Below are positions 1 to 19,657 of a DNA stretch of 64,000 nt, piece by piece (position 1 is the first letter of the stretch; every line of letters starts with the position of its first letter). The translations under genes were made by a program, and so were the position numbers. Below the pieces are notes generated by a model. The model saw only the letters and a list, made by a program, of their open reading frames with translations. It did no database searches and was not told the origin of the DNA. This stretch comes from an uncultured Actinomycetes bacterium (GTDB taxonomy: Bacteria; Actinomycetota; Thermoleophilia; RBG-16-64-13), in NCBI GenBank assembly GCA_963706025.1, contig CAVPLM010000011.1, positions 64,055 to 128,054 of the forward strand. The letters are read 5' to 3'.

Positions 1-1325
1 GCGGCCCGGACGGGCTGAGATTCGTCCACGTGTTGGCGACCGGGTCGTAGGCCCAGGTGTCGTCCAAGCCCTCCAAGCTCGAGGATGGGTTCGGGCTACC
101 CGACAACCCTCCGAACATGATCACCCGGCCGCTGGAGGGATCGTAGGCCATGGCCTGAGCGCTACGCGCAGGAGGCAGTGTCCCTTGCGGGCTGAGGTCG
201 GTCCACGTGTTGGCGACCGGGTCATAGGCCCAGGTGTCGTTGAGACGAACACCGAAGTCGTCGAACCCCCCGAACATGATCACCCGGCCGCTGGTGGGGT
301 CGTAGGCCATAGCGTCATCGGCGCGTCCAACGGGTGACTGCCCCGCCGGCGCTGAGCTCGCCCCAGGTGTTGGTCGTGGGATTGTAGACCCAGGTGTCAT
401 TGAGGACCCCACCGATCTCGTCGTTGAAATCTCCTCCGTCGCCGCATGAGCCTCCGAAGAGGAACAGCCGGTGCGTCGACGGATCGTAGGCCATCGAGTG
501 GCAGAAAGCGCCCAGGAGGCAGCGCCCCGGATGGACGGATTCTGGTCCACGTGCTCGCGGCCGGGTCGTAAACCCAGGTGTCATTTGCGTTCGCGGCGGA
601 TAACGAGCCTCCGAACAAGATCACGCGCCCGGTATCGGGATCGTACGCCATCGCGTGCCATGCCCGCGGCTGGGGCAGGGTCCCCTGCGGGTCGAGCTTG
701 GTCCAGAAGTTGTGGCTGGGCGGACTGGACGCATAGATGCCACCGACGGTGGCGGCCGCGATGACCAGAAGCGCCGCGAAGGTGATGGCCCAGGTCCTGC
801 GGTTCCATCTTTTCGGCCTCGCGGCCTTCTCGCCGGCAGAGGCCCCGGTTTCATCGCCGGTTGCGGCAGCCGTCATTCCGTCTTCTGCCGGGCTCTCGAC
901 CGCAGCCCGGGCCCGGTCAGTTGTCCCCGCACGGCGGCCAGGATCTCTCCCTGCTTGCCCTCCACTCCTCCGCGGACTTCCAGCCACTGCCACAGGTTGA
1001 GGTAGTACTCGATCGAGGCACTGGGAACGACGTCGTCTATGTGGAGGGAGAGCACGGGCCGGTCGTAGGCTATCGCCCGTTCGATCTCGCGCAGCACGTA
1101 GGGGGAGCTGTTGGCCGAGGTGGAGAAGATGAGCAGCACAAGGTCCGACGTGCGGATTGCATCGAGAGTCCCGGCAGCCGGGTCTGTCCCCTCCTTCAGG
1201 TCGCGGGGGGCCATCCAACAGCCGATACCCTCTGCCTCGAGCATATCGCAGACGTGGGAGGCGACCTCGCGATCCTCCGCGGCGTGGCTCACGAAGACCT
1301 GATGCGCCAAAGACGCCCCCTTCAC
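1..1325 (-). CDS. TIR domain - TM - Kelch repeat protein, paralog 1 (frameshifted; runs off the window's left edge)
   Basis: ORF 873..1325 is a TIR_2-like domain (QVFVSHA...GIGCWMAPRD...SPYVLREIERA). Another frame continues with a basic patch plus TM (RPKRWNRRTWAITFAALLVIAAATVGGIYA), then Kelch blades MAYDP...FGG...NDTWxYDP down to position 1. Confidence 0.85.
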
Positions 1326-1335
1326 TGCTGTCGGA

Positions 1336-2881
1336 TCACGGAGTATAGACCCAGGTATCTCCTAGGTCACCCTCGGTGCTGGAGAACCCTCCGAACATGA
1401 CCATCTGCCCGCTGGACGGCTCGTAGACCATCGACTGATCTTCCCGGGCGGAAGGCAAGGTTCCCTCCGGGGTGATGTCGCTCCACGTGTTCACCGTGGG
1501 ATCGTAGGCCCAGGTGTCGTTGGACCCGCCTCCGAACATGATCATGAGGCCGCTGGCGGCATCGTAGACGAGGGACATAGCCAGTCTCGCGAAGGGCACC
1601 GCGCCTTCCGGGCTGAGGTCGGTCCAGGTGTTGGCGGCCAGGTCGTAGGCCCAGGTGTCGTTGAAAGTGACCGTGTCTCTGAATCCTCCGAACACGATCA
1701 GCCGGTTGCGCGACCGGGTCGCAGGCCATAGAGTGCAAGGCGCGCGCCGGGGGCAGCGTTCCCGAGGGCTTGAGCTCGGTCCAGGTGTTGGCGGCGGGGT
1801 CATAGGCCCAGGTGTCGTTGAGGAACTCGCACTGTCGGCGCCGTCACCCGACTGCCCCCCGAACATGATCAACCGGCCGCTTGAGGCATCGTAGACCATC
1901 TGGTGACCGGCGCGCGCAGGGGGCAGGGTTCCTGCCGGGCTCAGTTCGGTCCAGGTGTTGGCGGCCGGATAGTAGGCCCAGGTGTCGTTGAAACGAGTCC
2001 CCGCCCCATCGAATCCTCCGAACATGATCAGCCGATGGGTAGCCGGATCGTACGCCATCGCTGGGTTCACGCGCGCTATGGGGAAGCGGCCCCGCGGGTT
2101 TCAGCTCGGTCCAGGTGTTGGCGGCGGGATCGTAGGCCCAGGTGTCGTGGAGGAGATTCGCCCGAGCGGCATCGCTCTTGAGAGTCGGGCCACCGCCGAA
2201 CATGATCATCCTATGGGTGTCGGAATCGTATGCCATCTCGTGGCCGCTGCGCGCCGACGGCGTCCCCTCTGGGTAGAGTTCGGTCCACGTGTTGTGCCCC
2301 ATCAGGCCCGGCGACGCCATGTGGCCGCCGGTATGTGTGGCCGCCCAGGTCCCTCCAGCCGCTGCCGCGGCGACGAGCACGACGGCGGCCGCCGCGAGGA
2401 TCCACCACCGTCGGCGGGCCCAGCGGCGCATCTTGACAGCCTTCCTGGGGACACCGGCCTGCGATTGCCCCGCAGCTTTCGATGCACGGATCGCGTCCCG
2501 CACGGCGGCTACGATCTCCTCTTGCTTCTTCTCGACTTCCGCTGCGGCCTTGAGCTTCTGCCACACGTTCACGTAGTACTCGATGGAGGAGTTGGGCACG
2601 GTGTCGTCCGTGCGCAGGGCGAGCACGGGCCGCTGGTAGGCCACGGCCCGCTCGATCTCGCGAAGCACGTAGGGAGAGGCGTTGGAGAAGGTGGAGAAGA
2701 TCAGGACCACCAGTTGCGAGTTTCGGATCGCATCCATGATGGCCGCGGCGTAGTCCGTGCCCGCTTCGACATCACGGGGGGCCATCCAGCAGACGATGCC
2801 GTCCGCCTCGAGCAGCGCGCAGACGTGGGCGGCCGTGTCGGCATCCTCCGTGGCGTAGCTCACGAAGACCTGATGCGCCAT
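1336..2881 (-). CDS. TIR domain - TM - 6-blade Kelch protein, paralog 2 (frameshifted)
   Basis: ATG at 2881 (MAHQVFVSYAT...SPYVLREIERA), TM after RRWARRRWW, six FGG...DTW blades spread over ORFs 1844..2926 and 1336..2070. Confidence 0.88.
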
Positions 2882-3199
2882 GGACACCTCCGCTGCGTCC
2901 GGACTGCAACCGAGCTCATAACACACAATAGAGCAGCGGCCGTCGACGCGCTAGTGGCGAGTCACAGCCCGCGTCTTACGCCTTCGCAAGAGATAGCGCC
3001 GCGGAGAGGTCGGAAAGGGGACCGTACGATGGGCACCATGATCGGAATCGTCGGAACGCTGGGAACAGTATTCGATCTCCTCCAGGGGCTCTGGGACTCG
3101 TTGGACAGGGCCGGGCTGGGCCAGGACAAGAGGGAGAAGATCATTGGTGACTTCTTGGATCGTTTGAGGCACGGGGAGCGGCTTACCAGGCTGGGACTA

Positions 3200-3407
3200 C
3201 AGTGTCGTCATGCCTAGGACACAAGGGTCATGGGGGAGGAAACCGGCCGGTTGCTTTCGACCATCCTCCCGCGTCTGCGCCATGCTCGAGGGGAACGGCA
3301 TCGGCTGCTGGTCAGCATCGTGCGATGCAACGGCCAGGAAAGACAAGGCGGCCGCGAATCTTCAGGCCCTCCACACCTCGGACCTGGGGACGGCTGGCTC
3401 TCGGTAG
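3200..3407 (+). pseudogene. Degenerate TIR-domain remnant
   Basis: RVCAMLEGNGIGCWSASCDAT...KDKAAANLQALHTSDL resembles the TIR N-terminus of 6188..6889 (RVCTLLEADGIGCWLASRDAT...EDKASATIEAIRRSDL) but is truncated. Confidence 0.65.
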
Positions 3408-3513
3408 CCCGCGCTGTTAGCCGGAGGGGACCTGCAGGACCTTCTCCAGATAGGTCGCAGCCGTGTCAGAATAAGAAGACTTGTGCCACAATCCGTCGCA
3501 TGAGAGGGCCGCT

Positions 3514-4177
3514 ATGACCGATGAAGTCGCCGCCGAGTATCGCTACTGGGCGTTCATCAGCTATAGCAGCAAAGATGAGGCGCACGCCAAGTGGCTTAAC
3601 CACGCAATTGAGACGTTCGGCGTGCCGGCAAAACTCGTCGAGCACAACCACAAGACGCCAACTGGCGAGTCGGCACCTAGAACGGCTCCGTCCGGTCTTT
3701 CGTGATCGTGACGAACTACCTGCATCATCCGATCTGGGTCACACCATCCAAGATGCACTGGTCGCCTCGCGCTATCTGATCGTGGTCTGTTCTCCCAATG
3801 CGGCCACGTCCGTGTGGGTGAACCGGGAGGTGGAGACGTTCGCCGCAATGGGTCGCAGGGAACGCATCTTGGCGTTCATCGTAGATGGCGAGCCCTATAG
3901 TGGTGGTGAGCAGGAATGCTTCCCGCCGGCGCTGAAACAGCAGGAACCCCTCGCGGCTGACGCCCGACGGCTTGGTGATGGCAGGGCGGACGCCCGCTTG
4001 AAGCTCCTTGCCGGGATGCTCGGGGTGGGCTTCGACGCGCTGAAGGACCGCGAACGCCGTCGCCGCATGCGCCGCCTCCAGATCGTGACCGCAGTGGCCA
4101 CTGCATTGGTTCTTGTCTTCGCCATCTTGGCGTACTTCGCATACTCCCAGCGGCAAGGCCCGGGTCCGGTTCATTGA
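3514..4177 (+). CDS. TIR domain protein with C-terminal TM helix (different TIR subfamily; frameshift near 3680; possibly 3'-truncated)
   Basis: YWAFISYSSKD...LRPVFRDRDELPASSDLG...LIVVCSPNAATSVWVNREV, followed by RERRRRMRR and a hydrophobic helix. Confidence 0.8.
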
Positions 4178-4450
4178 CATTGGGGCTCACTCGCCTTATG
4201 ATTCGTGTTGCCACCCCTGGGCTATATGCGCAGGGCGCGAAGCCGCTTCAGGGCGGTTTCGCATTTTTGTGGGGCCATGTTCTATCCTACAGTCTTAAAT
4301 AGCGGCTGTGGAAATCGTTTAACCAGCCGCAGAGATGCGCACTCCGCCTCCGCTGACGTCGCACTCCTGCGGATAGAACAAAGCTGCTGACCTTAGGCCC
4401 GTTCACACCCTCCCCAGGAGCGCAAATCCCCTGATTCTGCCCCCCATCCC

Positions 4451-4523
4451 TTCGGGGTCCGGGCTCGAACCGGGGACACCACAATCATCAGTCATGAACT
4501 CTGCCCGACCGAGCCACCACGTC
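4451..4523 (-). pseudogene. Degenerate tRNA-like sequence (probably tRNA-Phe-derived)
   Basis: Minus strand GACGTGG TG GCTC GGTCGGGCA GAGT T CATGA CTGATGA TTGTG GTGTC CCCGG TTCGAGC CCGGA. D, anticodon and T arms are recognisable, the acceptor stem does not pair, and the 3' half matches the tRNA-Phe fragments at 55883 and 60038. Confidence 0.55.
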
Positions 4524-4600
4524 GCTGGTGGAGGCTGCCCGGTCAGCGGCCTGACGATAAGCGCAACCTACAGTTGACTTACCCGGCTCTGTAGTGTCTT

Positions 4601-6195
4601 ATGGATTCTGTCGCAGTCGTCGGGAGCGAGGTGATGTTCTTGGCGCATCAGGTCTTCTTGAGCCACGCTACGGAGGACCGGGACACGGCCCTCCAAGTCT
4701 GCGCCGCGCTCGAGCCGGAAGGGATCCGCTGCTGGATAGCACCTCGCGACGTGCCGGCGGGCACCGACTACGCCGCCGCTATCCTGGACGGCATCCGGAC
4801 CTCAGACCTTGTACTGCTTATCTTCTCCGCGCATGCCGACGCCTCCCCCTACGTTCTGCGTGAGATCGAGCGAGCCGTGGCATATAAGAGGCCGGTGCTC
4901 GCACTCCGGATAGATGACGCTGCCCTCAGTTCCTCCATCGAGTATTACGTGACCCTGTGGCGGAAGCTCGATGCATCCGCCGGGATCGACACGAAACAGG
5001 CCGAGATCGTGGCCGCCGTGCAGGCCGCGCTGGTCGCTGGGGCGCCCGCTTCAGAATCAGGGTTGAGGGCGGCAAAGCGCTCCCGCCTGCTGGGTGGTTG
5101 GAGTCGGAGGAAGAAGGCCATCGCCCTCGCTGCGGTGGCGACAGCAGTAGTGGCGATCGGCCTCGGTCTGGGGCTCGGCCTTGGTCTCGCCCAGAACCAC
5201 GGGGCCTCGGGAGCCGGCCTGACACCCGGCCAAGTGATCTGGAAGAACCTCCACCCGAAGGAACCGCTGCCTCCCGCGCGGTACCTTTCAGAGATGGTCA
5301 ATGACCCGACCAGCGGACGGCTGATCATGTTCGGTGGGGCCGTGGACACGCCGGAAGGCGGTCGGGAGCTCATCGGCGACACGTGGGCCTACGATCCTTC
5401 GGCCAACACGTGGACCGAGCTTGGCCCCTCGGGTCCCCCTTCTGCCCGTGAGGCCCCGGCAATGGCCTACGACCCGGCTACTCGCAGGGTCATCATGTTC
5501 GGTGGCGGAGAGTCCATCGACGGTACCAGCTCAGCGATACCTGGGCCTACGATCCGGCGGCCAACACCTGGGCGCAACTCAGCCCCGCAGGCCCGGCGCC
5601 GATGGGTCGAAGCGGCCACGTGATGGTCTATGATCCCCCCAGCGGCCGCATACTCATGTGGGGAGGCGCGGGGGGAGAGGGGGTCTTCTTCAATGACCTC
5701 TGGGCTTTCGACGCAACCACGAACACGTGGACCGAGCTCATACCCACAGGAGCTCTGCCTGCGGGGCGCTCCCAAGCGGCCATGGCCTACGATCCGGTCA
5801 CGCGCAGGATGATCCTCTTCGGCGGCTGGGCTGACGAGTCCGCATTCGGCGACACCTGGGCCTACGACCCGGTGGCGAACGCCTGGACCGAGCTCCAGCC
5901 TGGGGGCACGCTGCCGTCTCCGCGCTACGCGCACGAGTTGGTCTGCGACCCCTCGCGCGGGCTCCTCGTAATGTTCGGTGGTGGAGATTTCTCTCGTGAT
6001 TACAACGATACCTGGACCTACGATCCGGCGGCGAACATCTGGACCAGACTCAGCGCTCTTCACGGCGCGGCGCCCTCCCGGCGCGGGGCACACGCGATGG
6101 TCTACGACCCTTCGGGAGGACGGCTGATAGTGTTCGGGGGCGACTCGTCCGCGCACGGCATCCTCAACGACACCTGGGCCTGCACTTTTGAATGA
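4601..6195 (+). CDS. TIR domain - TM - 6-blade Kelch protein, paralog 3 (frameshifted around 5530-5600)
   Basis: HQVFLSHATED...SPYVLREIERA, then RRKK plus TM (AIALAAVATAVVAIGLGLGLGL) and six Kelch blades across ORFs 4601..5623 and 5602..6195. Confidence 0.88.
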
Positions 6196-7750
6196 CATGC
6201 CCGCCGGTAACGTCTTCCTAAGCTACACCGGGCGGGACGAAGAGGCGGCCACGCGGGTCTGCACCCTGCTCGAGGCAGACGGCATCGGGTGCTGGCTGGC
6301 TTCGCGCGACGCGACATCGAGCGAGGACAAGGCGTCCGCGACCATCGAGGCCATCCGCAGATCGGACCTCGTGCTCCTCATCTTCTCCGCTTCTGCGAAC
6401 TCATCGCCCTACGTTCTGCGTGAGATCGAAAGGGCGATCGCGTATGAGCGCCCTGTCCTTTCCATACATCTTGACGACGCCGTTCCCAACCCTTCCCTCG
6501 AGTACTACCTGAACCTGTGGCAATGGCTCGACGCCCCCGGCAGTCTCGAGGAAAGGCGGGAGGAGATCGTCGCGGCGGTTCGCCGGCAGTTGGCAGGCAC
6601 GCCCGGACCGCAACTGTTCGAGCCGGATTCACCGGCTCCGTCTGAGACCACGGAAGAGCCTGAGCCACTGCCGCCCGAGGACGTGCCGCACCCCCGTCGA
6701 CGCCGGCTCAGGACGTGGATCATCGCCTTGGCCTTGGCAGTCTTGGTGGCAGCCGTCAGCCTCGGGCTTATCCTCGGGCTGGGCGTGACGCGAGAAGGGG
6801 ACATCTGGACCGAACTCACCCCAGAGGGCGCCCGCCCGCCGCTCGCGGCGGCCACGACATGGTCCTCGACTCCTCTGCCGGTCTCCTGATAGTCTTCGGG
6901 GGGAAACGGCGCGCGCAGGAGACTTCAACGATACCTGGGCCTACGATCCGCTCGCCAACACCTGGAGCGTCCTTGCCCCGTCGGGCGCACAGCCTGAGGC
7001 ACGGTATGACCACGCGATGGCGTACGATGAGGCCACCGATCAGGTCATCATGTTCGGCGGATACAGCGGCCCCGAGGACGGTACCGGCGACTACTACGAC
7101 GACACCTGGGCGTACGACGCCAAGGCCAACGCCTGGACCAAGCTCGAGCCGTCCGGAGCAGTGCCCCCCGCTCGCGCGTACCACACCATGGCCTACGATC
7201 CGGTGACCCAGCGGACGATCATGTTCGGGGGAGCCGGGACGGAGGACGTCTTCGCCGACACCTGGGCGTACGACGCCAAGGCCAACGCCTGGACCAAGCT
7301 CGAGCCGTCCGGCGCTGTGCCCCCCGCCCGCGCGGGCCATACCATGGCGTATGACCCGGACGTGCATAGAATGATCCTGTTCGGCGGCGGCATAGTTACA
7401 ACTGCAAGACTCGACGACACCTGGGCTTACGATCCCGACCTCAAACACCTGGGTCGACCTCACCCCGGCGGGGAGCCCGCCTGCGGGTCGATTGGGTGCG
7501 GCGATGACCTATGACTCCGCCAGCGACCGAATCGTCATGTTCGGAGGGGACCGACGAAGTGGGCCTCTGCTCCGATACCTGGGCTTACGACTCGAGCAAG
7601 AACCGCTGGACCGAACTGAACTCGGAGACCCATCCCGTCCCGCGCTTCAATCTCTGCATGGCCTACGACCCTTCCACGGAACGCGTCATCATGTTCGGAG
7701 GGACCAGCCCGGGGGGCGCCCGGTCGGATACGTGGGTCTGCACACCATAG
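6188..7750 (+). CDS. TIR domain - TM - 6-blade Kelch protein, paralog 4 (frameshifted)
   Basis: NVFLSYTGRD...SPYVLREIERA, Pro/Glu linker, RRRRLRTW plus TM, and Kelch blades in ORFs 6715.., 7017..7514 and 7511..7750. The start overlaps the stop of paralog 3. Confidence 0.88.
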
Positions 7751-8169: not shown

Positions 8170-8447
8170 AGTTCGGGGGCAAGTCGGGGGCAAACTCGAT
8201 AGCAGTCAAGGGACTTGGACGGACGCAAACGGACTACGCAACAGAATGGCGTCCCCTGGAACTCCGTCTTGTGAAATCCGTTGGATTGACGCAGAGTGGA
8301 ACCGGCCTATACTGAATCCATGCGGGGAGTGAGTCACTCTCCCGATTTGTAGCTCGGGGAGGCCGTGAAGACGGGGCCTTGCACGAGTTTCGACCCGCGC
8401 CTCGCTCCGTGCGGACACCGATTCTGCCCGAGGGGGAGGTGCGTCCT
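8170..8447 (+). promoter_or_regulatory. Conserved promoter + structured 5' leader module, copy A
   Basis: GGGGGCAA tandem repeat (8170-8194), TTGACG-N16-TATACT (8286-8313), hairpins and SD GGAGGTG before ATG 8448. A colinear copy lies on the minus strand at 30794-31071. Confidence 0.75.
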
Positions 8448-9482
8448 ATGAAGCCCAAAAGAAGTTTTGTGCTGGGCTTGCGTGTGCAGGTAGCGTCGAG
8501 CGTGGGCAGCCGGAGGAGGCGCATAGCTGGCCTCGCTGCGGTCCTATCGGTGCTAATACTCGTGCCGCTTATTTCGGCCTGTGGCAATCCCAAACTGTCC
8601 TATGTCTTCGTCGACGGCGACCACCAAAAATACAAACTGAGCATGGCTGTCGCCGAAAAGGGTCCGAACGGGGAAACGTTGGGAACGGTCACGCTTGAAG
8701 CCCTGCTGCATATTGATGCCAACATCGACAAACCGCATCGCTGTGCGAGTTTCGTTACGGTTGATTACGAAGACGTGAAGATAAGCACGACTGGCTCCGC
8801 CCAGAGCAGCGGGAACCAAATCCCAACAGCCTACTTCCACTTGTGCGAGGACCGTTTGCTCACTTTCAGCGGGCCAGCGCCGAGAGGTGACAACTATTCC
8901 GTCGAACTTGCGAGGACCGGTCCCAACGGTTCATTAAGCGTCATGCTGCTGAACACGCTGGTCGGCAAGTGCTTCGCACAACCGCGACGCGATTCCCTTC
9001 ACGAGTTGACGACTGGGAACGAGTGGACAACGACGCGGCAGCTTCCGGACGAATTCATGACGTATCTGTACACGGGCAAACGTCCGACTGACGACCAGAA
9101 CAGGGAAACCACGCAGGTAGAGGTGACTGGGCTGACGGGGGAAGGTGCGTTCGCGGAGTTGGCCTGGTCTTCGGTCACTCCCCTTTCGTGGCAGGTCGAC
9201 CGGACTGAAAGGCTTCTGGAGTCGGGCATGGACCCCTCGGAAATCGCTGTTCTTACCGCTGATGAGGGGGAGGCGACCATGGCGATGTCCGGTTCGCACA
9301 ATTGCTCGGGGACCGCCTTCGTTCGAACGTCAGACGGGTGGCCGCAACGAGCATCGATAGACCGGATGACCGTTGACCTCACTTCTTCGTGGGGCTACCC
9401 AGACGATCTCTCGTCGTCCGAGGAGGCTGGGCCAGTGGAAATGATTCTGGAGATTACGGGGTCAATCGAAGCGATTTCCTAG
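8448..9482 (+). CDS. Hypothetical lipoprotein
   Basis: Long ORF with a strong SD, a basic then hydrophobic signal peptide and lipobox ISAC. Confidence 0.7.
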   Translation: MKPKRSFVLGLRVQVASSVGSRRRRIAGLAAVLSVLILVPLISACGNPKLSYVFVDGDHQKYKLSMAVAEKGPNGETLGTVTLEALLHIDANIDKPHRCASFVTVDYEDVKISTTGSAQSSGNQIPTAYFHLCEDRLLTFSGPAPRGDNYSVELARTGPNGSLSVMLLNTLVGKCFAQPRRDSLHELTTGNEWTTTRQLPDEFMTYLYTGKRPTDDQNRETTQVEVTGLTGEGAFAELAWSSVTPLSWQVDRTERLLESGMDPSEIAVLTADEGEATMAMSGSHNCSGTAFVRTSDGWPQRASIDRMTVDLTSSWGYPDDLSSSEEAGPVEMILEITGSIEAIS

Positions 9483-9838: not shown

Positions 9839-10831
9839 ATGGTCGTCTCGGGAAGAAAGCTTGGACTCTTGGCGGCAGTTGGGCTTCTTCTCGTTGCACT
9901 TCTCCTAGTTGCCTGTACCAATGCCCCCTCGACCCCCACGACCACCCTCCGAACGAGCACCTCGACCTCCACCTCCGTCTCCAAGACTCCCGGCATCTCC
10001 TCGACCTCCAGCCTCCCGCACATCGGCGAGACACAATCGACCATCCTCATAAGTAGGACAAGCCCGTGGGAGGACTATTACCTAGCACTCCACCGCCTGG
10101 ACGCGCTCCTGCAAGCGGACGACCTACGGATGTCCCAGGTAGCGACGGACATCAACCGTACCGCCCCCGACATACCACAGGCGGTCCACGACGAAATTGG
10201 GAAAATGTTCATCGCGCTCCAGCAAGCGGAGATGACCCTCGACCAGGTACCGGACATTCCCGCTGAGTATCGCGAAGCCCACGACCTACTGCTCCAAGCG
10301 GCCAACCACATGCTCATGAGGATTAACCAGACCGGCGTCGCCGTCCAGGATATCTTGAACAGCGGGGACCCCACATCCGGCAACCCCTACTTCCAAGTGG
10401 CGCGCAACTATCGGGACTACTACCGGCAGACGTTTGCGCAGTACCAAGCCGCACTTCCAGGAGGCCAACCGCCCACCGCCGCGGGCGCACAGGAAGGACC
10501 CACCCCCAGCCCCCCCTCGACCGCCGATACCAGTCCGGAGGCGCGTCTAGTCTCCGACCTCTCCGGTGATGGCTACGCCGCCTACGTGGTGAACCACCTG
10601 AACGAGGGCGGGACGACGGTCATCCTGGTCGGGGTCTGGGTGGACATCTACATCTACGAGAAGACTCAGACCACCTACGATGCCATCTACGAGCATGCCA
10701 TCTCGTCAGCGAAGCAGCATGGGGTTGCCGCCGGTGAAGGAGAGCTGCTTAGGGTTGAGCTGGTAGAGGCGCCACCCGGACAGAAGATAATCGAGTCACG
10801 AGACTTCGACCTCAGTGGCGCTGAGGGGTGA
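9839..10831 (+). CDS. Hypothetical lipoprotein with Thr/Ser-rich linker
   Basis: SD AGGAGG, lipobox LVAC and a TTTLRTSTSTSTS linker. Confidence 0.75.
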   Translation: MVVSGRKLGLLAAVGLLLVALLLVACTNAPSTPTTTLRTSTSTSTSVSKTPGISSTSSLPHIGETQSTILISRTSPWEDYYLALHRLDALLQADDLRMSQVATDINRTAPDIPQAVHDEIGKMFIALQQAEMTLDQVPDIPAEYREAHDLLLQAANHMLMRINQTGVAVQDILNSGDPTSGNPYFQVARNYRDYYRQTFAQYQAALPGGQPPTAAGAQEGPTPSPPSTADTSPEARLVSDLSGDGYAAYVVNHLNEGGTTVILVGVWVDIYIYEKTQTTYDAIYEHAISSAKQHGVAAGEGELLRVELVEAPPGQKIIESRDFDLSGAEG

Positions 10832-10996
10832 GAGAGCCATGAGAGCACCACCTCTCGCGCAACTTTACGATGATAGGGTTGGGCCTCCACCGACTCTTTG
10901 AAGGCGTTTGGAGTCATGCGCACAGTAGACGGCCCTCTGGGACCGAGAGGTGCTACAGGAGCCAAGTGGGAACATGCGAGAAGTGGAGGGAGGGAG

Positions 10997-11443
10997 ATGA
11001 TGGGGCAGATGGCCGAAGACCCTAATGTCCGGACAAGGAGGAAGTGGCCGTTTGTCGTTATAGGTTTGGCCATCCTCGTCGGTTTGGTGGTGGGCGCTTT
11101 CGTGGGCATCGTTGGCTATCGGGCGGTGCTCACCAAAGAGCCTGCCGACATGACCGTCTGGCTTAGTAACCCGGTCACCCCGAATCAAGTCGGTGCGCTA
11201 ACGACGGAGATTGCCTCCTGGCCGGAGGTTACAGATGTTACGTTCGTGAGCGAGCTGGAGCGCTACGACAGGCTGAAGCGCGCAGCTGGAAGCCTTCACC
11301 TCATGGAGTGGATGCACGGCAATCCCTTCTCTCCTTCGTTCGAGGTCACCCTCAGCCAGCCGGTACCAGGTCTGGAAGTCCTCCGGCGCTTGCAGGAGAA
11401 CTTCGAACCCGGACTTGTGGACGGGGTCGGCACAAAGTACTAG
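10997..11443 (+). CDS. Single-TM protein with FtsX extracellular-domain-like region
   Basis: One TM, then MTVWLSNPVT...IASWPEVTDVTFVS...NPFSPSFEVTL, resembling the FtsX ECD. The C-terminal permease helices are absent. Confidence 0.6.
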   Translation: MMGQMAEDPNVRTRRKWPFVVIGLAILVGLVVGAFVGIVGYRAVLTKEPADMTVWLSNPVTPNQVGALTTEIASWPEVTDVTFVSELERYDRLKRAAGSLHLMEWMHGNPFSPSFEVTLSQPVPGLEVLRRLQENFEPGLVDGVGTKY

Positions 11444-14962: not shown

Positions 14963-15954
14963 GGCAGAAGCGGGCTGTCGCAGTCGGCCTGTGGGTGACT
15001 GTCGTGGTCTTGCTGATGAGTGCGATGTGGGCGGCGGGTTGTGGCTCCGACCAGGACGGTGCGCTTGGAACGACCGCAGTTGGCGGAACCTCTCTTAGCG
15101 TACTGGCCGCTGAGACCTTCCTGGCCGACATCGCCCAGAATGTGGCCGGCGACAAGGTGCAGGTGCAGTCCCTCATGCCGGTAGGGGCGGATCCTCACAG
15201 CTTCGAGCCCACCCCGGCCGACGTCGCCCGCGTGGCCGAGTGTAACGTGCTGATCGTGAACGGCGCCGGCTTCGAGGCCTCCTTCAACGAGATTCTCATG
15301 AACGCCGGCGAGCAGGCCCAGTTGATCGAAGCGGCTGCCGGGCTCACGAGCCGCACCGCGCGTGAGGGGGAGGAGGCCGTCGTGCTCGACACCGATCTGG
15401 CCGACGGAGGCCATCACCATGATGAGGGCGACCCCCACTTCTGGCTGGACCCGACCCTTGTGGTGAAATACGTCGAGAACATCCGCGACGGCCTCAGCCA
15501 AGCCGACCCGTCCAACGCAGCCGCCTACGCGGCGAACGCGGCCACGTACATCGCCAAATTGAACGAGTTGGATGCGTGGATCAAGGAGCAGGTGGCCCAG
15601 ATCCCGCCCACGCAACGCCTGCTGGTCACCAACCACGAGAGCTTCGGCTACTTCGCCGATAGGTACGGCTTCAAAGTGGTAGGCACCATCATGCCCAGCG
15701 TGAGCACCGGCTCATCGCCGTCTGCGCAGCAGCTTGCCCGTCTGATCGATACGATAGAGCAGACCGGCGCCCGCGCCGTCTTCCTGGAGACCGGTTCCAA
15801 TCCGCAACTTGCAGAGCAGGTGGCCGCGCAGACCGGAGTCACGGCGGTGACCGAGCTCTACAGCCACTCGGTCACGGAGGCCGGTGGCCCTGCCCCCACC
15901 TACCTGGACATGATGAGAGCCAACACCCAGGCCATAGTCGGGGCCCTGAAGTAG
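14950..15954 (+). CDS. Zn/Mn ABC transporter substrate-binding lipoprotein (ZnuA/TroA family)
   Basis: ADPHSFEP, His-rich HHHDEGDPHFWLDP, VTNHESFGYFA and lipobox AGC. Confidence 0.92.
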   Translation: MRVLRQKRAVAVGLWVTVVVLLMSAMWAAGCGSDQDGALGTTAVGGTSLSVLAAETFLADIAQNVAGDKVQVQSLMPVGADPHSFEPTPADVARVAECNVLIVNGAGFEASFNEILMNAGEQAQLIEAAAGLTSRTAREGEEAVVLDTDLADGGHHHDEGDPHFWLDPTLVVKYVENIRDGLSQADPSNAAAYAANAATYIAKLNELDAWIKEQVAQIPPTQRLLVTNHESFGYFADRYGFKVVGTIMPSVSTGSSPSAQQLARLIDTIEQTGARAVFLETGSNPQLAEQVAAQTGVTAVTELYSHSVTEAGGPAPTYLDMMRANTQAIVGALK

Positions 15955-16045
15955 ACGTCATGGCCCGCTCCGGTCGCAGGCCGGCCGGAAACCCTGTCGG
16001 AGCATGGAGAACAAGTCCGGTCCAGGGCTGCCGGCCGGGCGGCCC

Positions 16046-16534
16046 CTAGCGCCGCGGCACCAGCCGACCGACCAGTATGCCCACCCCGATGGCGATGACC
16101 ACCACCGGTCCGATGACCTCCCAGTTCCCGAACCAGAGGCCGAAACCCACCCCCAGCCAGATGGCGCACCAGATCAAGGAACCGAGTACCGGTCGCCGCC
16201 ACCTGGGAACGACGATCCTGAGCAGGACTTCGGCGAGGAAGATGACTCCGCCTCCCCAGAAGAAGACGGCCCACCCCTGATCTTCCTCTCTGAAGACGTC
16301 TTGGTTCTGCAGCAACAAGGTCACGCCGAACCAGATGATCACAAGCGCCCAAGCAACGAAGCCCAGCGGGTTGCGCCGGTACTTCTCGTCCAGATTTCGG
16401 CCCTTCTCCTGTTTCTTCTCCTGCCCTTTTTCCTGTTGCTTCTCGTCCTGTTTCTCGCCGCGATGCTGCTCTGGTGGCCGCTGCTGTTGCAGCGGCTGGT
16501 TTTGTGGCTGCTGGTCTTGCTGCTCTGGATCCAT
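16046..16534 (-). CDS. Membrane protein with Gln/Glu/Lys-rich N-terminus
   Basis: Four hydrophobic helices and GGAGG SD. Confidence 0.65.
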   Translation of the reverse strand: MDPEQQDQQPQNQPLQQQRPPEQHRGEKQDEKQQEKGQEKKQEKGRNLDEKYRRNPLGFVAWALVIIWFGVTLLLQNQDVFREEDQGWAVFFWGGGVIFLAEVLLRIVVPRWRRPVLGSLIWCAIWLGVGFGLWFGNWEVIGPVVVIAIGVGILVGRLVPRR

Positions 16535-16736
16535 AGTCGCCTCCCAAAACCGGAACTCTGCCACGACGCTTCGATCTCGCGATCACTACCCTTTCGATTC
16601 TACACGGATTGATAGCTTTGTTGAACCGCTCGTCAAGCACCGGCCAAGCGGGTGCTACGCTGTAGTCTGATCGAGATTCGTCAAGGGCTTTTGCGGGGGC
16701 GGAGGCGCGACAGGTGCGTAGATACGAAGCGCGGAG

Positions 16737-17516
16737 GTGGACGTGGGCAGATTGAGAGACAAGGTCGCCATAGTCACCGGCGCGGGCTCGGGGATAGGCC
16801 GGGCAGTCGCGATCGCATTCGCCAAGGAGGGCGCGCGCGTCGTGGTCAACGATCGCCGGCGAGACGGGATGGGCGAAGAGACCGTCGCCTTGATCGAAGC
16901 GGCCGGCGGCGACGCCGTCTACGTCGACGCCGACGTCAGCCGGGAAGCGGAGGTCGAGCGGCTCGTCCAGACGGCGGTCGACACCTACGGGCGACTGGAC
17001 GTCCTGGTGAACAACGCCGGCGTGGCGATATACAAGCCGCTTCAAGAGCTGACCGAGCAGGACTTCGACCTCGTGGTCGCCGTCAATCAGAAGGGGACCT
17101 TCTTCGGGACCAAGCACGCCGTCCCGGCGATGATCGCGGCCGGAGGAGGATCGATCATAAACACGGCTTCCATCGCCGCGGACCACGGCCAGCACGGCTC
17201 CTTCGTCTACGGCGCCACCAAAGGGGCGATCCTGTCGATGACCAGGATCGCCGCTGCCGAACTGGCGCAGTTCAACATCCGCGTGAACGCCGTCCAGCCC
17301 GGTGTGATCAAGACGGGCATGGCCGCCGCCGGCGGCGAGCACAGGGCCCGGGTGATGGAGCGGTGCGCCCGGGAGACCCCGCTGGGGAATCGGATAGGGA
17401 CTACCGAGGAGTGCGCGCCTCTCTACGTCTTCCTGGCGTCGGACGAATCCAGCTTCATCACGGGTCAGAAGATGGCGGTGGACGGCGGCATCCTTGCCGA
17501 GAGCCACATCATATGA
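16737..17516 (+). CDS. SDR family oxidoreductase
   Basis: TGAGSGIG, NNAG and YGATK motifs. Confidence 0.93.
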   Translation: MDVGRLRDKVAIVTGAGSGIGRAVAIAFAKEGARVVVNDRRRDGMGEETVALIEAAGGDAVYVDADVSREAEVERLVQTAVDTYGRLDVLVNNAGVAIYKPLQELTEQDFDLVVAVNQKGTFFGTKHAVPAMIAAGGGSIINTASIAADHGQHGSFVYGATKGAILSMTRIAAAELAQFNIRVNAVQPGVIKTGMAAAGGEHRARVMERCARETPLGNRIGTTEECAPLYVFLASDESSFITGQKMAVDGGILAESHII

Positions 17517-17587
17517 CCCGCGCCGGCGGAGACCTGGTCTAGCGGAGACCTGCCCCAGGGGATCCCCGCCCTTGGCGGATCCCCGCC

Positions 17588-18349
17588 CTAGGAGATCCCG
17601 AGGATCTTGTGTATCTGGAGCGACAGGCGCCACTCTGGATGGTCCATGACGAGCGCGATGGCCCGCCTGCACGACTCCTGGTAGGGGCCGGCGTCCCCCC
17701 CACCCCTCCCGGCCACTCCCCCCGCCCCGGCCATCCCGGCCACCGCTCCTTCCCCGGACGCGGGCTGCAGAAAGACGACGGCGCCCGGGTGCGACGCGGC
17801 CAGCCGCTCCGCGGTGGCCGCGTCCAGGTGGTCGTCGACCACCAGCTTGAGTTCGTCCACGGACCCGGCCCACTGCGAAGCGACGAAGTAGTCCGGCGGC
17901 TTGGGGCTGATCACGACCCAGTCGAAGGCGCATCGGGCGTCGGTAGCCCCGCTCGAGGCCGCGCCGGCGCCTTCCCAGGCGACGGTCGGCCCTTCGCGCG
18001 GGACGAGGGGCGCCGGCGGGTTCACGGTCCCATTGGTCTCCAAGTGCACCCGAATTCCCCACCTGTGCGCCTCGGCCACAAGCTCTCCCACAACATCAAC
18101 TTGAAGTAGAGGTTCACCTCCGGTGAGGCAGAGGCGCGGCAGATGAACCCGGCGAAGGATCTCGGCGACCTCCAGCTCTTCACCGGCGCCACGGTCCCAG
18201 CTGCCGGGCGTGTCGCACCAGGCCACACACCCCAGTCCCAGCTCCGGACCGTTACATCCGGACAGGCGGACGAAGGTCATGGGAGTGCCGGTCCAGTAGC
18301 CCTCACCCTGGAGCGAGTCGAAGATCTCCAATGTTCGCAGGGTGGTCAT
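17588..18349 (-). CDS. queE: 7-carboxy-7-deazaguanine synthase (radical SAM)
   Basis: EIFDSLQGEG...FVRLSGC...WCDT, LTGGEP, LETNG, SPK, WRLSLQIHK; operon with queD/C/F. Confidence 0.92.
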   Translation of the reverse strand: MTTLRTLEIFDSLQGEGYWTGTPMTFVRLSGCNGPELGLGCVAWCDTPGSWDRGAGEELEVAEILRRVHLPRLCLTGGEPLLQVDVVGELVAEAHRWGIRVHLETNGTVNPPAPLVPREGPTVAWEGAGAASSGATDARCAFDWVVISPKPPDYFVASQWAGSVDELKLVVDDHLDAATAERLAASHPGAVVFLQPASGEGAVAGMAGAGGVAGRGGGDAGPYQESCRRAIALVMDHPEWRLSLQIHKILGIS

Positions 18350-18403
18350 CGCGGCAGGGTGGTCATCGCGGCAGGGGCATCGATATCGCCGTCTGCCTGC
18401 CTG

Positions 18404-18766
18404 TCAGGCAGTGACTTCCACGTACGTGTTCGGCCCCTCGGCCAGACGCACCCGCACCACCGGTAGACCGGCATCCTGCAGGCGGCCGAAGACCCAGGCC
18501 GCCACGGCCTCCACCGTGGGCACGAAATCGAAGAGCTCATTGAGGAGCTGGTGATCGAGGTGGTCGATGATCAGTTCGTCAACCCGTTGCCGAAGGTCGG
18601 CGAAATCCATGACCATCCCCGCCGCGGGGCCAAACTGCTGAGGCTTGCCCTCCACCGTCACTTCCAGGCCATAGGTGTGGCCGTGCAAACGGCAGCATTT
18701 GCCCTCGTGCTCGGGCAGCCGGTGGGCAGCGGCGAAAGTGGCGGCAACTGTGATGGTGGTCTTCAC
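18404..18766 (-). CDS. queD: 6-carboxy-5,6,7,8-tetrahydropterin synthase
   Basis: FAAAHRLPEHEGKCCRLHGHTY...GMVMDF...LDHQLLNE. Confidence 0.92.
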   Translation of the reverse strand: MKTTITVAATFAAAHRLPEHEGKCCRLHGHTYGLEVTVEGKPQQFGPAAGMVMDFADLRQRVDELIIDHLDHQLLNELFDFVPTVEAVAAWVFGRLQDAGLPVVRVRLAEGPNTYVEVTA

Positions 18767-18783
18767 GACGGAGCCGGGAGTCC

Positions 18784-19657
18784 TCAGCTGCCTGCGCGAG
18801 GATTCGCCGCGCCTTGGTCGGTTGCCGCGCCGTGGTCGGTCGGCGCGACTTCGTCGACCGCCGCGCCCCCGCCGGCCGTTGGGCCCCCGCCGGCCGTCGC
18901 GCCTTCGCCGTGGCCACCGGCCTGCTGCTCGTAGGGGATGGGGTCGACGGCACCGGCGCTTCTGAAGGCAGCCAGCCTTGCCTGGCACGTATCGCACACG
19001 CCACAGGCCGGCCGGCGGCCCTGGTAGCAGGAGTGGGTCAGCTCGTAAGGGACGCCGTGGTCCAGGCCCCAACGGATGATGTCGGCCTTAGACCAGTGGA
19101 CGAACGGCGCCTGCACCCGCAGTTCGTACTGCGTGCCCAGCAGCACCGCCTCGTCGGCGGCCGCCACGAACTCGGGCCGGCAGTCGGGGTAGCCGGTGTG
19201 GTCGTCGTGATGGACTCCCAACCACAAGACCCCGGGGCCGAAGGCGTCCTGGAGACTGGCCATGTGCGCCAGGAAGAGCAGGTTCCGCGCCGGCACGTAC
19301 GACGGCGCCACCCCACTGATGCCCGCGAGATCGCGTCCCTCGGGCAGGGCCACTTCGGCGTCGGTGAGCGCCGAACCGTGGATGGGAGCAAGCTCGATCA
19401 GGAAATGCTCCATCCCGAACGCCGCAGCCACCGTCCGGGCGGCCTCCAACTCGACGACGTGCTTCTGACCGTAGAGGAAGGTGTAGGCCTTGACCGGTTC
19501 CCCCGGATGCTGCTCCCTTATCCAAGCGGCGAGCGTTGTCGAATCCAGACCGCCGCTAAGGAGCAGGCAGTGCGTCGACTGTCGCGGGCGCCGGCGCGGG
19601 CGCCGAAGCCAGCCGCGGTCCGGGCGCGGGCGCCGCGCCGGCCGCCCGCTCGCTCAT
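18784..19657 (-). CDS. queC: 7-cyano-7-deazaguanine synthase (frameshift near the 5' end)
   Basis: LLSGGLDSTT, YGQKH, YVPARN, YPDCRPEF, THSCY...CGVCDTC. ATG 19657 overlaps the queF stop. Confidence 0.92.

What the first reader, a model, noticed from the sequence alone, without database searches (positions are those of the whole stretch)
1..7750. Cluster of four TIR-TM-Kelch genes: candidate bacterial Toll-like receptor analogues
Seen: four paralogs, two on each strand and transcribed divergently. Each has an N-terminal TIR domain, an Arg/Lys patch directly before one TM helix, and a Kelch propeller (six blades in the three complete copies). All keep the Glu in SPYVLREIERA. Known: bacterial TIR domains are oligomerisation-activated NAD+ hydrolases or signal synthases (Thoeris ThsB, TIR-SAVED, TIR-STING, SPARTA) that use this Glu, and the characterised ones sense cytoplasmic cues. 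Inference: by the positive-inside rule the TIR is cytoplasmic and the propeller extracellular, giving a repeat-ectodomain/TM/TIR receptor with TLR logic in reverse (type II) orientation. It could sense phage, predator or neighbour ligands at the surface. I do not recognise this as a characterised system.
Basis: partly seen in the sequence, partly recalled or inferred. Interest (0 to 1): 0.88.

Follow-up and report, generated by a model that had tools for sequence, protein, structure and literature searches.

The report
Frameshifted TIR–membrane–Kelch receptor-like gene cluster
Four neighbouring genes encode membrane proteins with a TIR signalling domain predicted inside the cell and a Kelch propeller predicted outside, a receptor-like design that is common in related soil bacteria but untested, and every copy in this assembly is interrupted by frameshifts.

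Summary
Window 1-7750 carries four paralogs (A and B on the minus strand, C and D on the plus strand). Each has an N-terminal TIR_2 domain, a Lys/Arg patch, one TM helix and a six-blade Kelch propeller. All four keep SPYVLREIERA.

No copy is one open frame. I count about 1 (C), 3 (B), 4 (D) and 6-7 (A) frameshifts, 14 of 15 in the Kelch part. rpoB and rpoC are open. Intact fused homologs of 483-579 aa are numerous, often in tandem arrays. The ortholog in a sister MAG has different frameshifts, and dN/dS stays low downstream of the breaks. Assembly error is therefore more likely than old decay, but this is unproven.

Across 70 of 70 intact homologs the charge bias predicts TIR inside and propeller outside. 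The first Glu of REIER aligns with the Roq1 catalytic E86, but 15 of 70 homologs have Asp or Gln there. The same TIR subtype precedes a TM helix and NHL, BNR, Sel1 or FGE-sulfatase domains in other phyla. In some relatives it heads an adjacent cytosolic TIR-cyclase-STAND-TPR protein.

I found no description in print. Function is inferred, not shown.

The parts
1..1310 (-). Paralog A, TIR-TM-Kelch. TIR 915-1310, K/R patch 796-828, TM 730-792, Kelch 1-708. The C-terminal blades continue upstream of the window to about -300 (G000:C11 near 63750). About 6-7 frameshifts.
1336..2881 (-). Paralog B, TIR-TM-Kelch with six blades. K/R patch 2408-2434, TM 2339-2407. Three frameshifts near 2062, 1826 and 1708.
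   Evidence: dN/dS against the sister-MAG ortholog is 0.25.
3264..3386 (+). Degenerate remnant of a TIR domain of the same subtype, about 41 aa, 54-59% identical to intact homologs.
3481..4177 (+). Gene E, a TIR of another subtype (FISYSSKDE ... SVWVNREVE). K/R patch 4043-4081, TM 4082-4144. It ends 11 codons after the TM and has one frameshift inside the TIR. It is a truncated member of the TIR-TM-WD40/TPR family.
4640..6195 (+). Paralog C, TIR-TM-Kelch with six blades. K/R patch 5075-5116, TM 5117-5191. One frameshift near 5529.
   Evidence: A related-strain contig carries a frame-restoring -17 nt variant at 5511-5518.
6203..7750 (+). Paralog D, TIR-TM-Kelch with six blades. K/R patch 6689-6715, TM 6716-6787. 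Four frameshifts near 6834, 6905, 7434 and 7549.
   Evidence: A related-strain contig carries +4 nt at 6903/6912.
4844..4876 (+). SPYVLREIERA motif of paralog C. The same motif lies at 1074-1106(-), 2645-2677(-) and 6404-6436(+). Its first Glu aligns with the Roq1 catalytic E86.

Best explanation
The locus is a tandem/divergent array of paralogous type II single-pass membrane proteins of an uncultured actinobacterial lineage. Each protein has an N-terminal cytoplasmic TIR domain, a disordered linker, a Lys/Arg stop-transfer patch, one TM helix and a C-terminal extracytoplasmic six-blade Kelch propeller whose inter-strand loops are the variable part.

The most likely mechanism is inferred, not shown. 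The propeller binds an external ligand such as a glycan or protein from the wall, a neighbour or a phage. Binding changes the clustering of the receptor in the membrane. Clustering brings the TIR domains together. The assembled TIRs then either cleave NAD+ through the conserved Glu or recruit another TIR protein.

The array is self-contained. The only genes that recur with it are further paralogs and, in some relatives, a cytosolic TIR-cyclase-STAND-TPR protein.

In this assembly all copies are interrupted by frameshifts. I judge these more likely to be consensus errors in a repetitive, strain-variable locus (about 60%) than real inactivation (about 40%, and more likely for copy A).
For: Shown:
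- Pfam TIR_2 and Kelch domains.
- 70 intact fused homologs of 483-579 aa.
- Intact tandem copies in relatives: L028 521+524 aa, L031 565+505+492 aa, L029, L027, L030, L032.
- AF2 model of P0002 at pLDDT 88.8, with TIR 1-132, low-confidence linker, helix 159-172 and propeller 195-513.
- TIR model at pLDDT 86.6. Foldseek top matches are the SPARTA TIR-APAZ, RPS4, SARM1 and BtpA TIRs, with 277 matches at E<=0.001.
- K+R in the 15 residues flanking the TM average 4.9 on the N side and 1.1 on the C side, with N>C in 70 of 70. There is one hydrophobic peak in 65 of 70, and no hydrophobic N-terminus above 1.61.
- The first Glu of REIER aligns with Roq1 residue 86. That residue is the catalytic glutamate according to passages of bioRxiv 10.1101/2020.08.13.246413.
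- TIR is the most conserved domain (mean column entropy 1.25 against 1.74 for Kelch). Variability is concentrated in the loop after FGG (entropy 2.4-3.4) and after the conserved Arg.
- In 11 of 11 loci the only recurring gene family is the paralogs themselves.
- The same TIR subtype is followed by a TM in 20 of 23 loci from other phyla. Of the 10 scanned with Pfam, the C-terminal domains were NHL, Kelch, BNR, FGE-sulfatase or Sel1 (3) in seven, with no C-terminal Pfam match in three. The atlas also lists TIR+PD40 and TIR+LVIVD clusters.

For error rather than decay:
- rpoB (1253 aa) and rpoC (1444 aa) are open.
- 14 of 15 frameshifts lie in the repetitive Kelch part.
- There are no in-frame stops in the well-aligned parts of B, C and D.
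- The sister-MAG ortholog of B has four frameshifts, three at positions not shared with the window's B; one pair lies two residues apart in the same loop.
- dN/dS for B is 0.25 overall, 0.28 downstream of the first break and 0.08 in the TIR.
- Related-strain contigs carry frame-restoring variants at two of the sites.
Against: - No activity, ligand or phenotype is known for any member.
- The catalytic position is Glu in only 55 of 70 homologs, with Asp in 14 and Gln in 1. The residue four positions before it, Trp in Roq1 and oyster TIR-STING in the alignments, is Tyr in 42 of 70 and otherwise Thr, Ala, Gly or Ser. Catalysis may therefore not be the conserved function.
- PADLOC gave only weak TIR-domain hits, best E 1e-9 to a SAVED-TIR model.
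- No ThsA-like or other signal-receiving partner recurs.
- Topology rests on charge bias and hydropathy only. No dedicated predictor was available.
- Copy A and its sister-MAG ortholog look more decayed: dN/dS is 0.45, and the ortholog's aligned path has two in-frame TGA codons.
- The locus also holds a true TIR remnant, a truncated gene E, and truncated PCC and FtsX genes nearby. Real gene decay therefore does occur here.
- Several related MAGs also have split copies (P0008, P0085, P0086, P0090).
Confidence: 0.5

Rival explanations
1. The array in this genome is a set of real pseudogenes. It would be a decaying, strain-variable island in which the TIR-TM-Kelch genes, gene E and their neighbours are being lost. 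Nothing functional would be encoded here, whatever the family does elsewhere.
For: - About 15 frameshifts lie in about 6.3 kb while rpoB and rpoC are intact.
- The spacer holds a genuine TIR remnant and a truncated gene E.
- The PCC gene is cut at a synteny breakpoint at -575, and the FtsX gene is reduced to its extracellular domain with no continuation in any frame.
- Copy A has dN/dS 0.45, and its sister-MAG ortholog has two in-frame TGA codons.
- Split copies also occur in other related MAGs.
Against: - Only indels are seen, and no stops, in the well-aligned parts of B, C and D.
- 14 of 15 breaks lie in the repeat part. By my own hand binomial at 62% of gene length, not a tool call, this has a chance of about 0.008.
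- Frameshift positions in B are mostly not shared with the sister MAG: three of its four are at different positions, and one pair lies two residues apart.
- dN/dS is 0.28 downstream of the first break in B.
- Frame-restoring variants occur in related-strain contigs at 5511-5518 and 6903/6912.
- Intact copies exist in a same-genus genome: G001:C1:4792-6354 has an open frame of 560 aa.
Confidence: 0.3
2. The TIR acts mainly as a homotypic adaptor, not an enzyme. The membrane receptors would signal by TIR-TIR recruitment of a cytosolic TIR-adenylate/guanylate cyclase-STAND(AAA_16)-TPR protein encoded next to them. This would be a TLR-to-adaptor style relay whose output is a cyclic nucleotide or STAND oligomerisation.
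For: - A soluble protein of 1216-1701 aa with TIR_2, Guanylate_cyc, AAA_16 and TPR_12 lies beside the array in 6 of the 10 full-length actinobacterial loci (L027, L028, L030, L032, L033, L036, from 4 MAGs).
- Its TIR carries the identical SPYVLREIERA motif and is 63-66% identical to the neighbouring receptor TIR, which is as close as the paralogs are to each other.
- No TM-like hydrophobic stretch was found in 3 of the 4 examined.
- The catalytic Glu and the residue four positions before it are less conserved in the family than other TIR residues such as E25, C31, W32, S63, S69 and E77.
- TIR+cyclase proteins P0091 and P0093 share 64-65% TIR identity with copy C.
Against: - None is present in this genome. 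All 6 TIR_2 matches of G000 lie inside the cluster, and the only cyclase-STAND homolog is 28% identical on C26. The genome is 92% complete.
- It is absent from L029, L031, L037 and L042.
- The six loci come from four related MAGs and are not independent.
- In L074 (TIR-TM-NHL) the adjacent cyclase-STAND genes start with a zinc-ribbon-like segment rather than a TIR.
Confidence: 0.2
3. The role is not sensory. The Kelch propeller would be a wall-facing enzyme or lectin, for example a sugar mutarotase or oxidase-like protein or an adhesin, anchored by the TM helix. The TIR would be a cytoplasmic stabilising or regulatory appendage.
For: - One source names 34 of the 70 aligned homologs 'N-acetylneuraminic acid mutarotase'.
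- Bacterial Kelch propellers such as NanM are periplasmic enzymes (recalled, not from a call).
- The propeller framework is strongly conserved.
Against: - Pfam NANM scores 20-27.9 bits on the window's pieces, against a cut-off of 45.
- The same TIR-TM module is joined to non-enzymatic repeat domains (Sel1, NHL, BNR) in other phyla. This points to a common binding-module logic.
- The variable positions are loops and not a conserved pocket.
- TIR is the most conserved part.
Confidence: 0.1
4. TIR-TM and Kelch are truly separate genes in this lineage. The split would be the native organisation, with the two products acting together.
For: Close relatives have TIR-TM-only gene calls of 223-267 aa: P0008 at 97% identity, P0085 and P0090 at 92%, and P0086.
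Against: - The C-terminal tails of P0085, P0086 and P0090 read as out-of-frame Kelch sequence, such as 'DDHVRR' and 'QRHLGLRS'.
- The break points differ between genomes and between copies.
- There is no start codon or gap structure at the breaks.
- Intact fusions dominate on the contigs that show no breaks.
Confidence: 0.05

Closest known systems
Animal Toll-like receptors (and IL-1R family)
   Same: A repeat-built ectodomain, one TM helix and a cytoplasmic TIR. Multigene families have variable ectodomain surfaces. In some relatives a soluble TIR protein is encoded alongside, which would be formally analogous to a TIR adaptor.
   Different: The orientation is reversed: type II, with an N-terminal TIR and no signal peptide. 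The ectodomain is a Kelch propeller instead of an LRR solenoid. The TIR keeps the NADase-type Glu. There is no evidence of common descent of the whole architecture, and no ligand or pathway is known.
Bacterial TIR NADase and signal-synthase systems (Thoeris ThsB, SPARTA TIR-APAZ, TIR-STING, TIR-SAVED, AbTir-type)
   Same: The TIR fold is shared; the best structural matches are SPARTA TIR-APAZ at TM 0.74-0.77. Glu sits at the catalytic position. There are weak profile hits to ThsB and SAVED-TIR models.
   Different: Those systems are soluble and triggered by cytoplasmic cues or second messengers. Here the TIR is tethered to a TM helix and an outside domain. No ThsA, Ago, STING or SAVED partner or domain is present. 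The catalytic position is Asp or Gln in 15 of 70 homologs.
TIR-TM-WD40/TPR proteins (the family of gene E; annotated only as 'WD40 repeat protein', 'TPR repeat protein' or 'TIR domain-containing protein')
   Same: [quoted passage not shown] A truncated member sits inside this very cluster. The family is very large: 2041 longer relatives at E<=1e-5 among 7925 candidates scored.
   Different: The TIR subtype differs (FISYS... / SxWVxxE) and the C-terminal repeats are WD40 or TPR. As far as my searches show, this family is also uncharacterised.
NanM-type periplasmic Kelch mutarotases (the source annotation of many homologs)
   Same: A six-blade Kelch propeller located outside the cytoplasm.
   Different: The Pfam NANM score is below its cut-off. 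These proteins are TM-anchored with a TIR, and no conserved pocket was identified.
Actinobacterial cyclase-STAND(AAA_16)-TPR proteins and TIR-headed STAND/NLR-like conflict proteins (Kaur et al. 2020, 2021; passages read)
   Same: In relatives the neighbouring protein has exactly this build, with a TIR at the N-terminus. The logic of 'the same N-terminal domain on two neighbouring proteins' resembles the effector-associated-domain principle described in those papers.
   Different: Kelch does not occur in the text of either paper, and no passage shown to me describes membrane receptors that carry the TIR. This window has no such partner.

Membership tests
TIR domain (Pfam TIR_2, PF13676) | Profile match above the curated cut-off (28 bits) | tested here: met
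   A 66.5, B 68.6, C 73.1, D 63.8 and gene E 37.9 bits. The AF2 TIR model has pLDDT 86.6 with TIR-fold matches.
Catalytic (NADase-type) TIR | Glu at the position of Roq1 E86 / SARM1-type catalytic Glu | tested here: met
   The first Glu of REIER aligns with Roq1 residue 86 (E-value 0.027, a weak match). The role of E86 comes from passages read. The Glu is present in all four window copies. In the family it is E in 55 of 70, D in 14 and Q in 1.
Catalytic (NADase-type) TIR | Aromatic residue (Trp) four positions before the Glu, and measurable NAD+ cleavage | tested here: inconclusive
   The residue is Tyr in the window copies. In the family it is Y in 42 of 70 and otherwise T, A, G or S. That a Trp is required is recalled, not tested. 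Enzyme activity is not testable with these tools.
Thoeris | ThsB-type TIR together with a ThsA (SIR2 or Macro/TM + SLOG) effector gene | tested here: not met
   PADLOC ThsB models give only E 1e-4 to 8e-3. No recurring partner gene was found in 11 loci. ThsA families were not searched for by name in G000.
Toll-like receptor | LRR ectodomain, type I topology, C-terminal TIR | tested here: not met
   The ectodomain is Kelch, the TIR is N-terminal, and charge bias predicts N-in. The resemblance is one of logic only.
Kelch beta-propeller | Six Kelch repeats that close into a propeller | tested here: met
   Several Pfam Kelch families score above their cut-offs. Six DTW-anchored blades are seen in B, C, D and the homologs. 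The AF2 propeller 195-513 has pLDDT mostly above 93.
NanM (N-acetylneuraminate mutarotase, PF24996) | Profile match above the cut-off (45 bits) | tested here: not met
   20-27.9 bits on the window's pieces.
Type II single-pass membrane protein (N-in, C-out) | No signal peptide, one TM helix, positive charge on the N-terminal flank | tested here: met
   In 70 of 70 homologs K+R is higher on the N flank than the C flank (means 4.9 and 1.1). There is one hydrophobic peak in 65 of 70, and no N-terminal hydrophobic segment above 1.61. This comes from my own hydropathy script, not a trained predictor; experimental topology is not testable here.

The most novel reading that the evidence does not exclude
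Bacteria possess true transmembrane pattern receptors built on TIR. This would be a large, multi-phylum class of type II proteins in which an outside propeller or repeat domain (Kelch, NHL, BNR, PD40, LVIVD, Sel1, FGE-sulfatase, WD40/TPR) detects an extracellular cue such as phage, predator, kin or wall damage. It would transmit the signal across the membrane by clustering an inside TIR. In some actinobacteria this TIR would relay by TIR-TIR contact to a cytosolic TIR-cyclase-STAND protein, a prokaryotic counterpart of the TLR-to-adaptor relay. Arrays that mix Glu-type and Asp-type TIR paralogs would act as sensor/helper pairs.
Probability: 0.15. Interest if true: 0.9.

Novelty: new variant of a known kind. 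Interest (0 to 1): 0.55.

Why it matters
All characterised bacterial TIR systems sense events inside the cell. If a TIR is wired to an outside sensor through a single TM helix, the question of whether bacteria perceive threats or neighbours at the surface through TIR signalling becomes directly testable. It would also give an independent, reversed-topology solution to the design used by animal Toll-like receptors.

The family is abundant in uncultured soil and sediment Actinomycetota. The wider TIR-TM-repeat class has thousands of members annotated only generically. Intact homologs are therefore available for topology, NADase and ligand assays.

For this particular window the practical message is a warning. 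The copies are frameshifted and should not be used as they stand.

Tried and rejected
- A GC-phase hidden Markov model meant to count frameshifts genome-wide could not even assign strand correctly in the Kelch region, so I dropped it.
- Long ORFs are no evidence of intact genes in this 64% GC genome. The 720 aa ORF at 15900-18062 is a shadow of real genes on the other strand.
- QueC looked truncated by Pfam coverage (profile 41-209), but its N-terminus is in the same frame without a listed start codon. It is not a frameshift.
- Complex prediction on two copies of the TIR domain of copy C gave no verdict (score 0.00, controls not run). It counts neither for nor against self-association.
- Read laying returned only short contigs of related strains. 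No record spans the stretch, 25 indel rows were not shown, and cover over copies A and B is thin. It cannot settle the frameshifts. I draw no conclusion on habitat from the small word shares.
- The atlas label 'Viruses 50%' for the TIR+Kelch cluster rests on 6 members with a known phylum. The viral-contig scan found 26 pattern matches, none of which encodes a relative.
- Rfam found nothing in the window.
- The search of earlier findings held nothing for this genome.
- The glycine-zipper idea for the TM found GxxxGxxxG in only 19 of 70 homologs, so it is not a family feature.
- One search was an empty script.
- Rows left out of alignment A1: of the 120 proteins listed I aligned 70, those of 483-579 aa whose precomputed Pfam list includes TIR_2. 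The 50 dropped were shorter, fragmentary or lacked TIR or Kelch.

Full report
WHAT IS THERE

The window is G000:C11:64055-128054 of a 3.66 Mb, 30-contig MAG, 92.3% complete and 7.3% contaminated. Its nearest relatives are MAGs labelled uncultured Actinomycetes, Actinomycetota, Thermoleophilia or Gaiellales.

Positions 1-7750 hold four paralogous genes:
- A, minus strand, starts near 1310 and runs off the window start to about -300.
- B, minus strand, 2881 to 1336.
- C, plus strand, 4640 to 6195.
- D, plus strand, 6203 to 7750.

Each begins with a Pfam TIR_2 domain scoring 63.8-73.1 bits against a cut-off of 28. A linker of 25-70 residues follows, then a Lys/Arg patch, one hydrophobic helix and six Kelch blades. 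All four carry SPYVLREIERA.

The 1.7 kb between B and C is not empty. It holds a 41-residue remnant of a TIR of the same subtype (3264-3386) and a fifth gene, E (3481-4177). Gene E has a different TIR subtype, an Arg-rich patch and a TM helix, and it stops 11 codons after the helix. All six TIR_2 matches in the genome lie in this cluster.

THE FRAMESHIFTS

None of the four genes is one open frame. I aligned each to the intact homolog P0002 with a frameshift-aware dynamic programme of my own. I discounted events in the unconserved linker and TM region, where the ORFs are continuous. What remains:
- C: 1, near 5529.
- B: 3, near 2062, 1826, 1708.
- D: 4, near 6834, 6905, 7434, 7549.
- A: 6-7, near 914, 507, 353, -38, -69, -211, -282.

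That is about 15 in 6.3 kb, with 14 in the Kelch part. The Kelch part is about 62% of each gene, so a hand binomial gives roughly 0.008 for this skew. Gene E has one more, inside its TIR.

This is not a genome-wide property. rpoB and rpoC sit in open frames of 1253 and 1444 aa.

Evidence that favours consensus error or very recent lesions:
- The well-aligned parts of B, C and D contain no in-frame stop.
- A sister MAG (L037 = G003:C14) is syntenic from -572 to 2984 at 88.3% DNA identity with 94 gaps. Its ortholog of B has four frameshifts, at protein positions 225, 328, 343 and 354. The window has 269, 345 and 384, so three of the four are not shared and one pair lies two residues apart in the same loop.
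- dN/dS between the two B orthologs is 0.25 overall, 0.08 in the TIR and 0.28 downstream of the first break.
- Contigs of related strains in public runs carry -17 nt at 5511-5518 and +4 nt at 6903/6912. Both changes restore the frame at a break in the window.
- A same-genus genome has an uninterrupted copy, G001:C1:4792-6354, in an open frame of 560 aa.

Evidence that favours real decay:
- The TIR remnant and the truncated gene E.
- A PCC-domain gene cut at the synteny breakpoint at -575.
- An FtsX gene reduced to its extracellular domain.
- dN/dS of 0.45 for copy A, whose sister ortholog also has two in-frame TGA codons.

Several related MAGs with long contigs also show split copies whose tails read as out-of-frame Kelch sequence. 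Indel errors that survive in repeats are a known weakness of long-read consensus. That statement is recalled, and I do not know how this MAG was made. I put about 60% on error and 40% on real inactivation, with the latter more likely for A.

THE FAMILY

A search with copy C returned 162 proteins at E<=1e-5 among 8000 scored candidates, of which 120 were listed. I aligned 70 of these as A1, namely those of 483-579 aa that carry TIR_2; the other 50 listed were shorter or lacked a domain.

Several share a longest-contig length, which suggests tandem arrays. The fetched loci confirm this: L028 has 521+524 aa, L031 has 565+505+492 aa, L029 has 556+837+497 aa, and L027, L030 and L032 are similar.

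AlphaFold2 on A1 gives pLDDT 88.8. The model has TIR at 1-132, a low-confidence linker, a helix at 159-172 and a closed propeller at 195-513. The TIR alone gives pLDDT 86.6, and its best Foldseek matches are the TIRs of SPARTA TIR-APAZ (TM 0.74-0.77), RPS4, SARM1 and BtpA.

TOPOLOGY

In 70 of 70 homologs the 15 residues before the helix hold more Lys+Arg than the 15 after it, with means of 4.9 and 1.1. 65 of 70 have a single hydrophobic peak. No homolog has a hydrophobic N-terminus above 1.61. By the positive-inside rule, which is established knowledge, the TIR is cytoplasmic and the propeller extracytoplasmic. This is a prediction from my own hydropathy script, not from a trained predictor.

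ACTIVE SITE

A profile of the TIR region (A2) aligns the first Glu of REIER with residue 86 of Roq1 and with the matching Glu of the oyster TIR-STING protein. Roq1 E86 is called the catalytic glutamate, and its Ala mutant loses the hypersensitive response, in passages of bioRxiv 10.1101/2020.08.13.246413.

All four window copies have this Glu. In the family it is Glu in 55, Asp in 14 and Gln in 1 of 70. The residue four positions before it, Trp in the two aligned references, is Tyr in 42 of 70 and otherwise a small residue. Other TIR positions are more constant, namely E25, C31, W32, S63, S69 and E77. Catalysis is therefore plausible but not secure.

Six of the 15 Asp/Gln-type proteins share a longest-contig length with a Glu-type protein. 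That is only a proxy for the same contig. It is a lead that arrays may pair the two types.

WHAT VARIES

TIR is the most conserved domain, with mean column entropy 1.25; Kelch has 1.74 and the linker 2.66. Within a blade the framework is nearly fixed. The seven residues after FGG (entropy 2.4-3.4) and the four after the conserved Arg (2.3-3.0) are the variable parts. In Kelch propellers these loops form one face. That is recalled; I could not read coordinates of the model.

CONTEXT

Across ten full-length loci plus this one, the only gene family that recurs is the paralogs themselves. PADLOC gives only weak TIR-domain hits. The viral-contig scan found no relative.

A second association appeared. 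In 6 of the 10 actinobacterial loci (L027, L028, L030, L032, L033, L036, from four MAGs) the array is flanked by a protein of 1216-1701 aa with TIR_2, an adenylate/guanylate cyclase domain, AAA_16 and TPR. In 3 of the 4 examined it has no TM-like hydrophobic stretch. Its TIR carries the identical SPYVLREIERA motif and is 63-66% identical to the neighbouring receptor TIR. This genome has none.

WIDER CLASS

The same TIR subtype is followed by a hydrophobic helix in 20 of 23 loci from other phyla. Among the 10 of those that I scanned, the C-terminal domain was NHL, Kelch, BNR, FGE-sulfatase, or Sel1 in three; three had no Pfam match. The atlas adds TIR+PD40 and TIR+LVIVD clusters. Gene E belongs to a very large TIR-TM-WD40/TPR family, with 2041 longer relatives at E<=1e-5 among 7925 candidates.

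HOW IT MOST LIKELY WORKS

This section is inference. An outside propeller binds a ligand. Receptor clustering brings the inside TIRs together. The TIR assembly then either cleaves NAD+ or recruits a further TIR protein.

Shown: domains, fusion, array structure, conservation pattern.

Predicted: topology, catalytic competence.

Unknown: ligand, output, biological role.

KNOWN OR NEW

Six full-text searches found no description of TIR-TM-Kelch or of membrane-spanning bacterial TIR receptors. I also read passages of a TIR survey (PMC7075850) and of two comparative-genomics papers (PMC8195603, PMC7159879). Those papers describe TIR fused to STAND NTPases, to other effector contexts and to sensor domains such as NPCBM. 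Kelch does not occur in either text, and no passage shown to me describes a TM-anchored receptor. Supplements were closed.

I file the finding as a new variant of a known kind: bacterial TIR sensor-effector fusions. It resembles TLRs in logic only. It fails TLR, Thoeris and NanM membership on tested features.

VERDICT

The instance in this window is broken and of uncertain integrity. The family-level hypothesis is attractive and testable. Interest 0.55.

Noticed in passing
window 3481-4177 (+): A fifth TIR gene of a different subtype, with an Arg-rich patch and a TM helix. It is frameshifted inside the TIR and ends just after the TM. Its relatives are 383-2000 aa TIR-TM-WD40 or TIR-TM-TPR proteins, with 2041 at E<=1e-5.
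   Followed up: partly
window 3264-3386 (+): A 41-residue degenerate fragment of a TIR domain of the TIR-Kelch subtype. It is a true gene remnant in the divergent spacer.
   Followed up: partly
L027:2081-5977(-), L030:12941-16591(+), L033:2103-6011(-), L036:245-5350(-): In relatives, large proteins with TIR_2, adenylate/guanylate cyclase, AAA_16 and TPR lie beside the TIR-TM-Kelch arrays. Their TIR has the same SPYVLREIERA motif and is 63-66% identical to the receptor TIR. This genome has none.
   Followed up: partly
alignment A1 (70 homologs), position 75 of P0002: 15 of 70 homologs have Asp or Gln instead of the catalytic Glu. 6 of those 15 share a longest-contig length with a Glu-type paralog. 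This hints at mixed Glu/Asp pairs in one array.
   Followed up: no
G000:C11 about 63480 (window -575); L014:19401-19655: A PCC (DUF296) gene is cut at residue 72, exactly where synteny with the sister MAG locus L037 ends. This is either a rearrangement or an assembly joint right next to copy A.
   Followed up: partly
window 10898-11443 (+): An ORF with only the FtsX extracellular domain. No membrane part follows in any frame, so it looks like a truncated gene.
   Followed up: partly
L014:16178-18472 (-), 1.3-3.6 kb upstream of the window: A 764 aa protein with an AAA ATPase domain and a C-terminal RyR domain. Its function is unknown.
   Followed up: no
window 1-64000: No Rfam family reaches its gathering score anywhere in the 64 kb window, tRNA included.
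   Followed up: no
window 17588-19449 (-): A queuosine precursor cluster with QueC and a PTPS/QueD-like protein by Pfam, and by eye a QueE-like ORF. QueC has no ATG, GTG or TTG start codon upstream of its conserved SGGxDS motif.
   Followed up: partly
window 8379-9482 (+) and 9839-10831 (+): Two ORFs directly downstream of copy D have hydrophobic N-termini, look lipoprotein-like or secreted by eye, and have no Pfam match.
   Followed up: no
L029:8438-10951 (+): An 837 aa relative with one TIR, one TM helix and about ten Kelch_4 matches. It is either a double propeller or an in-frame fusion of two copies.
   Followed up: no
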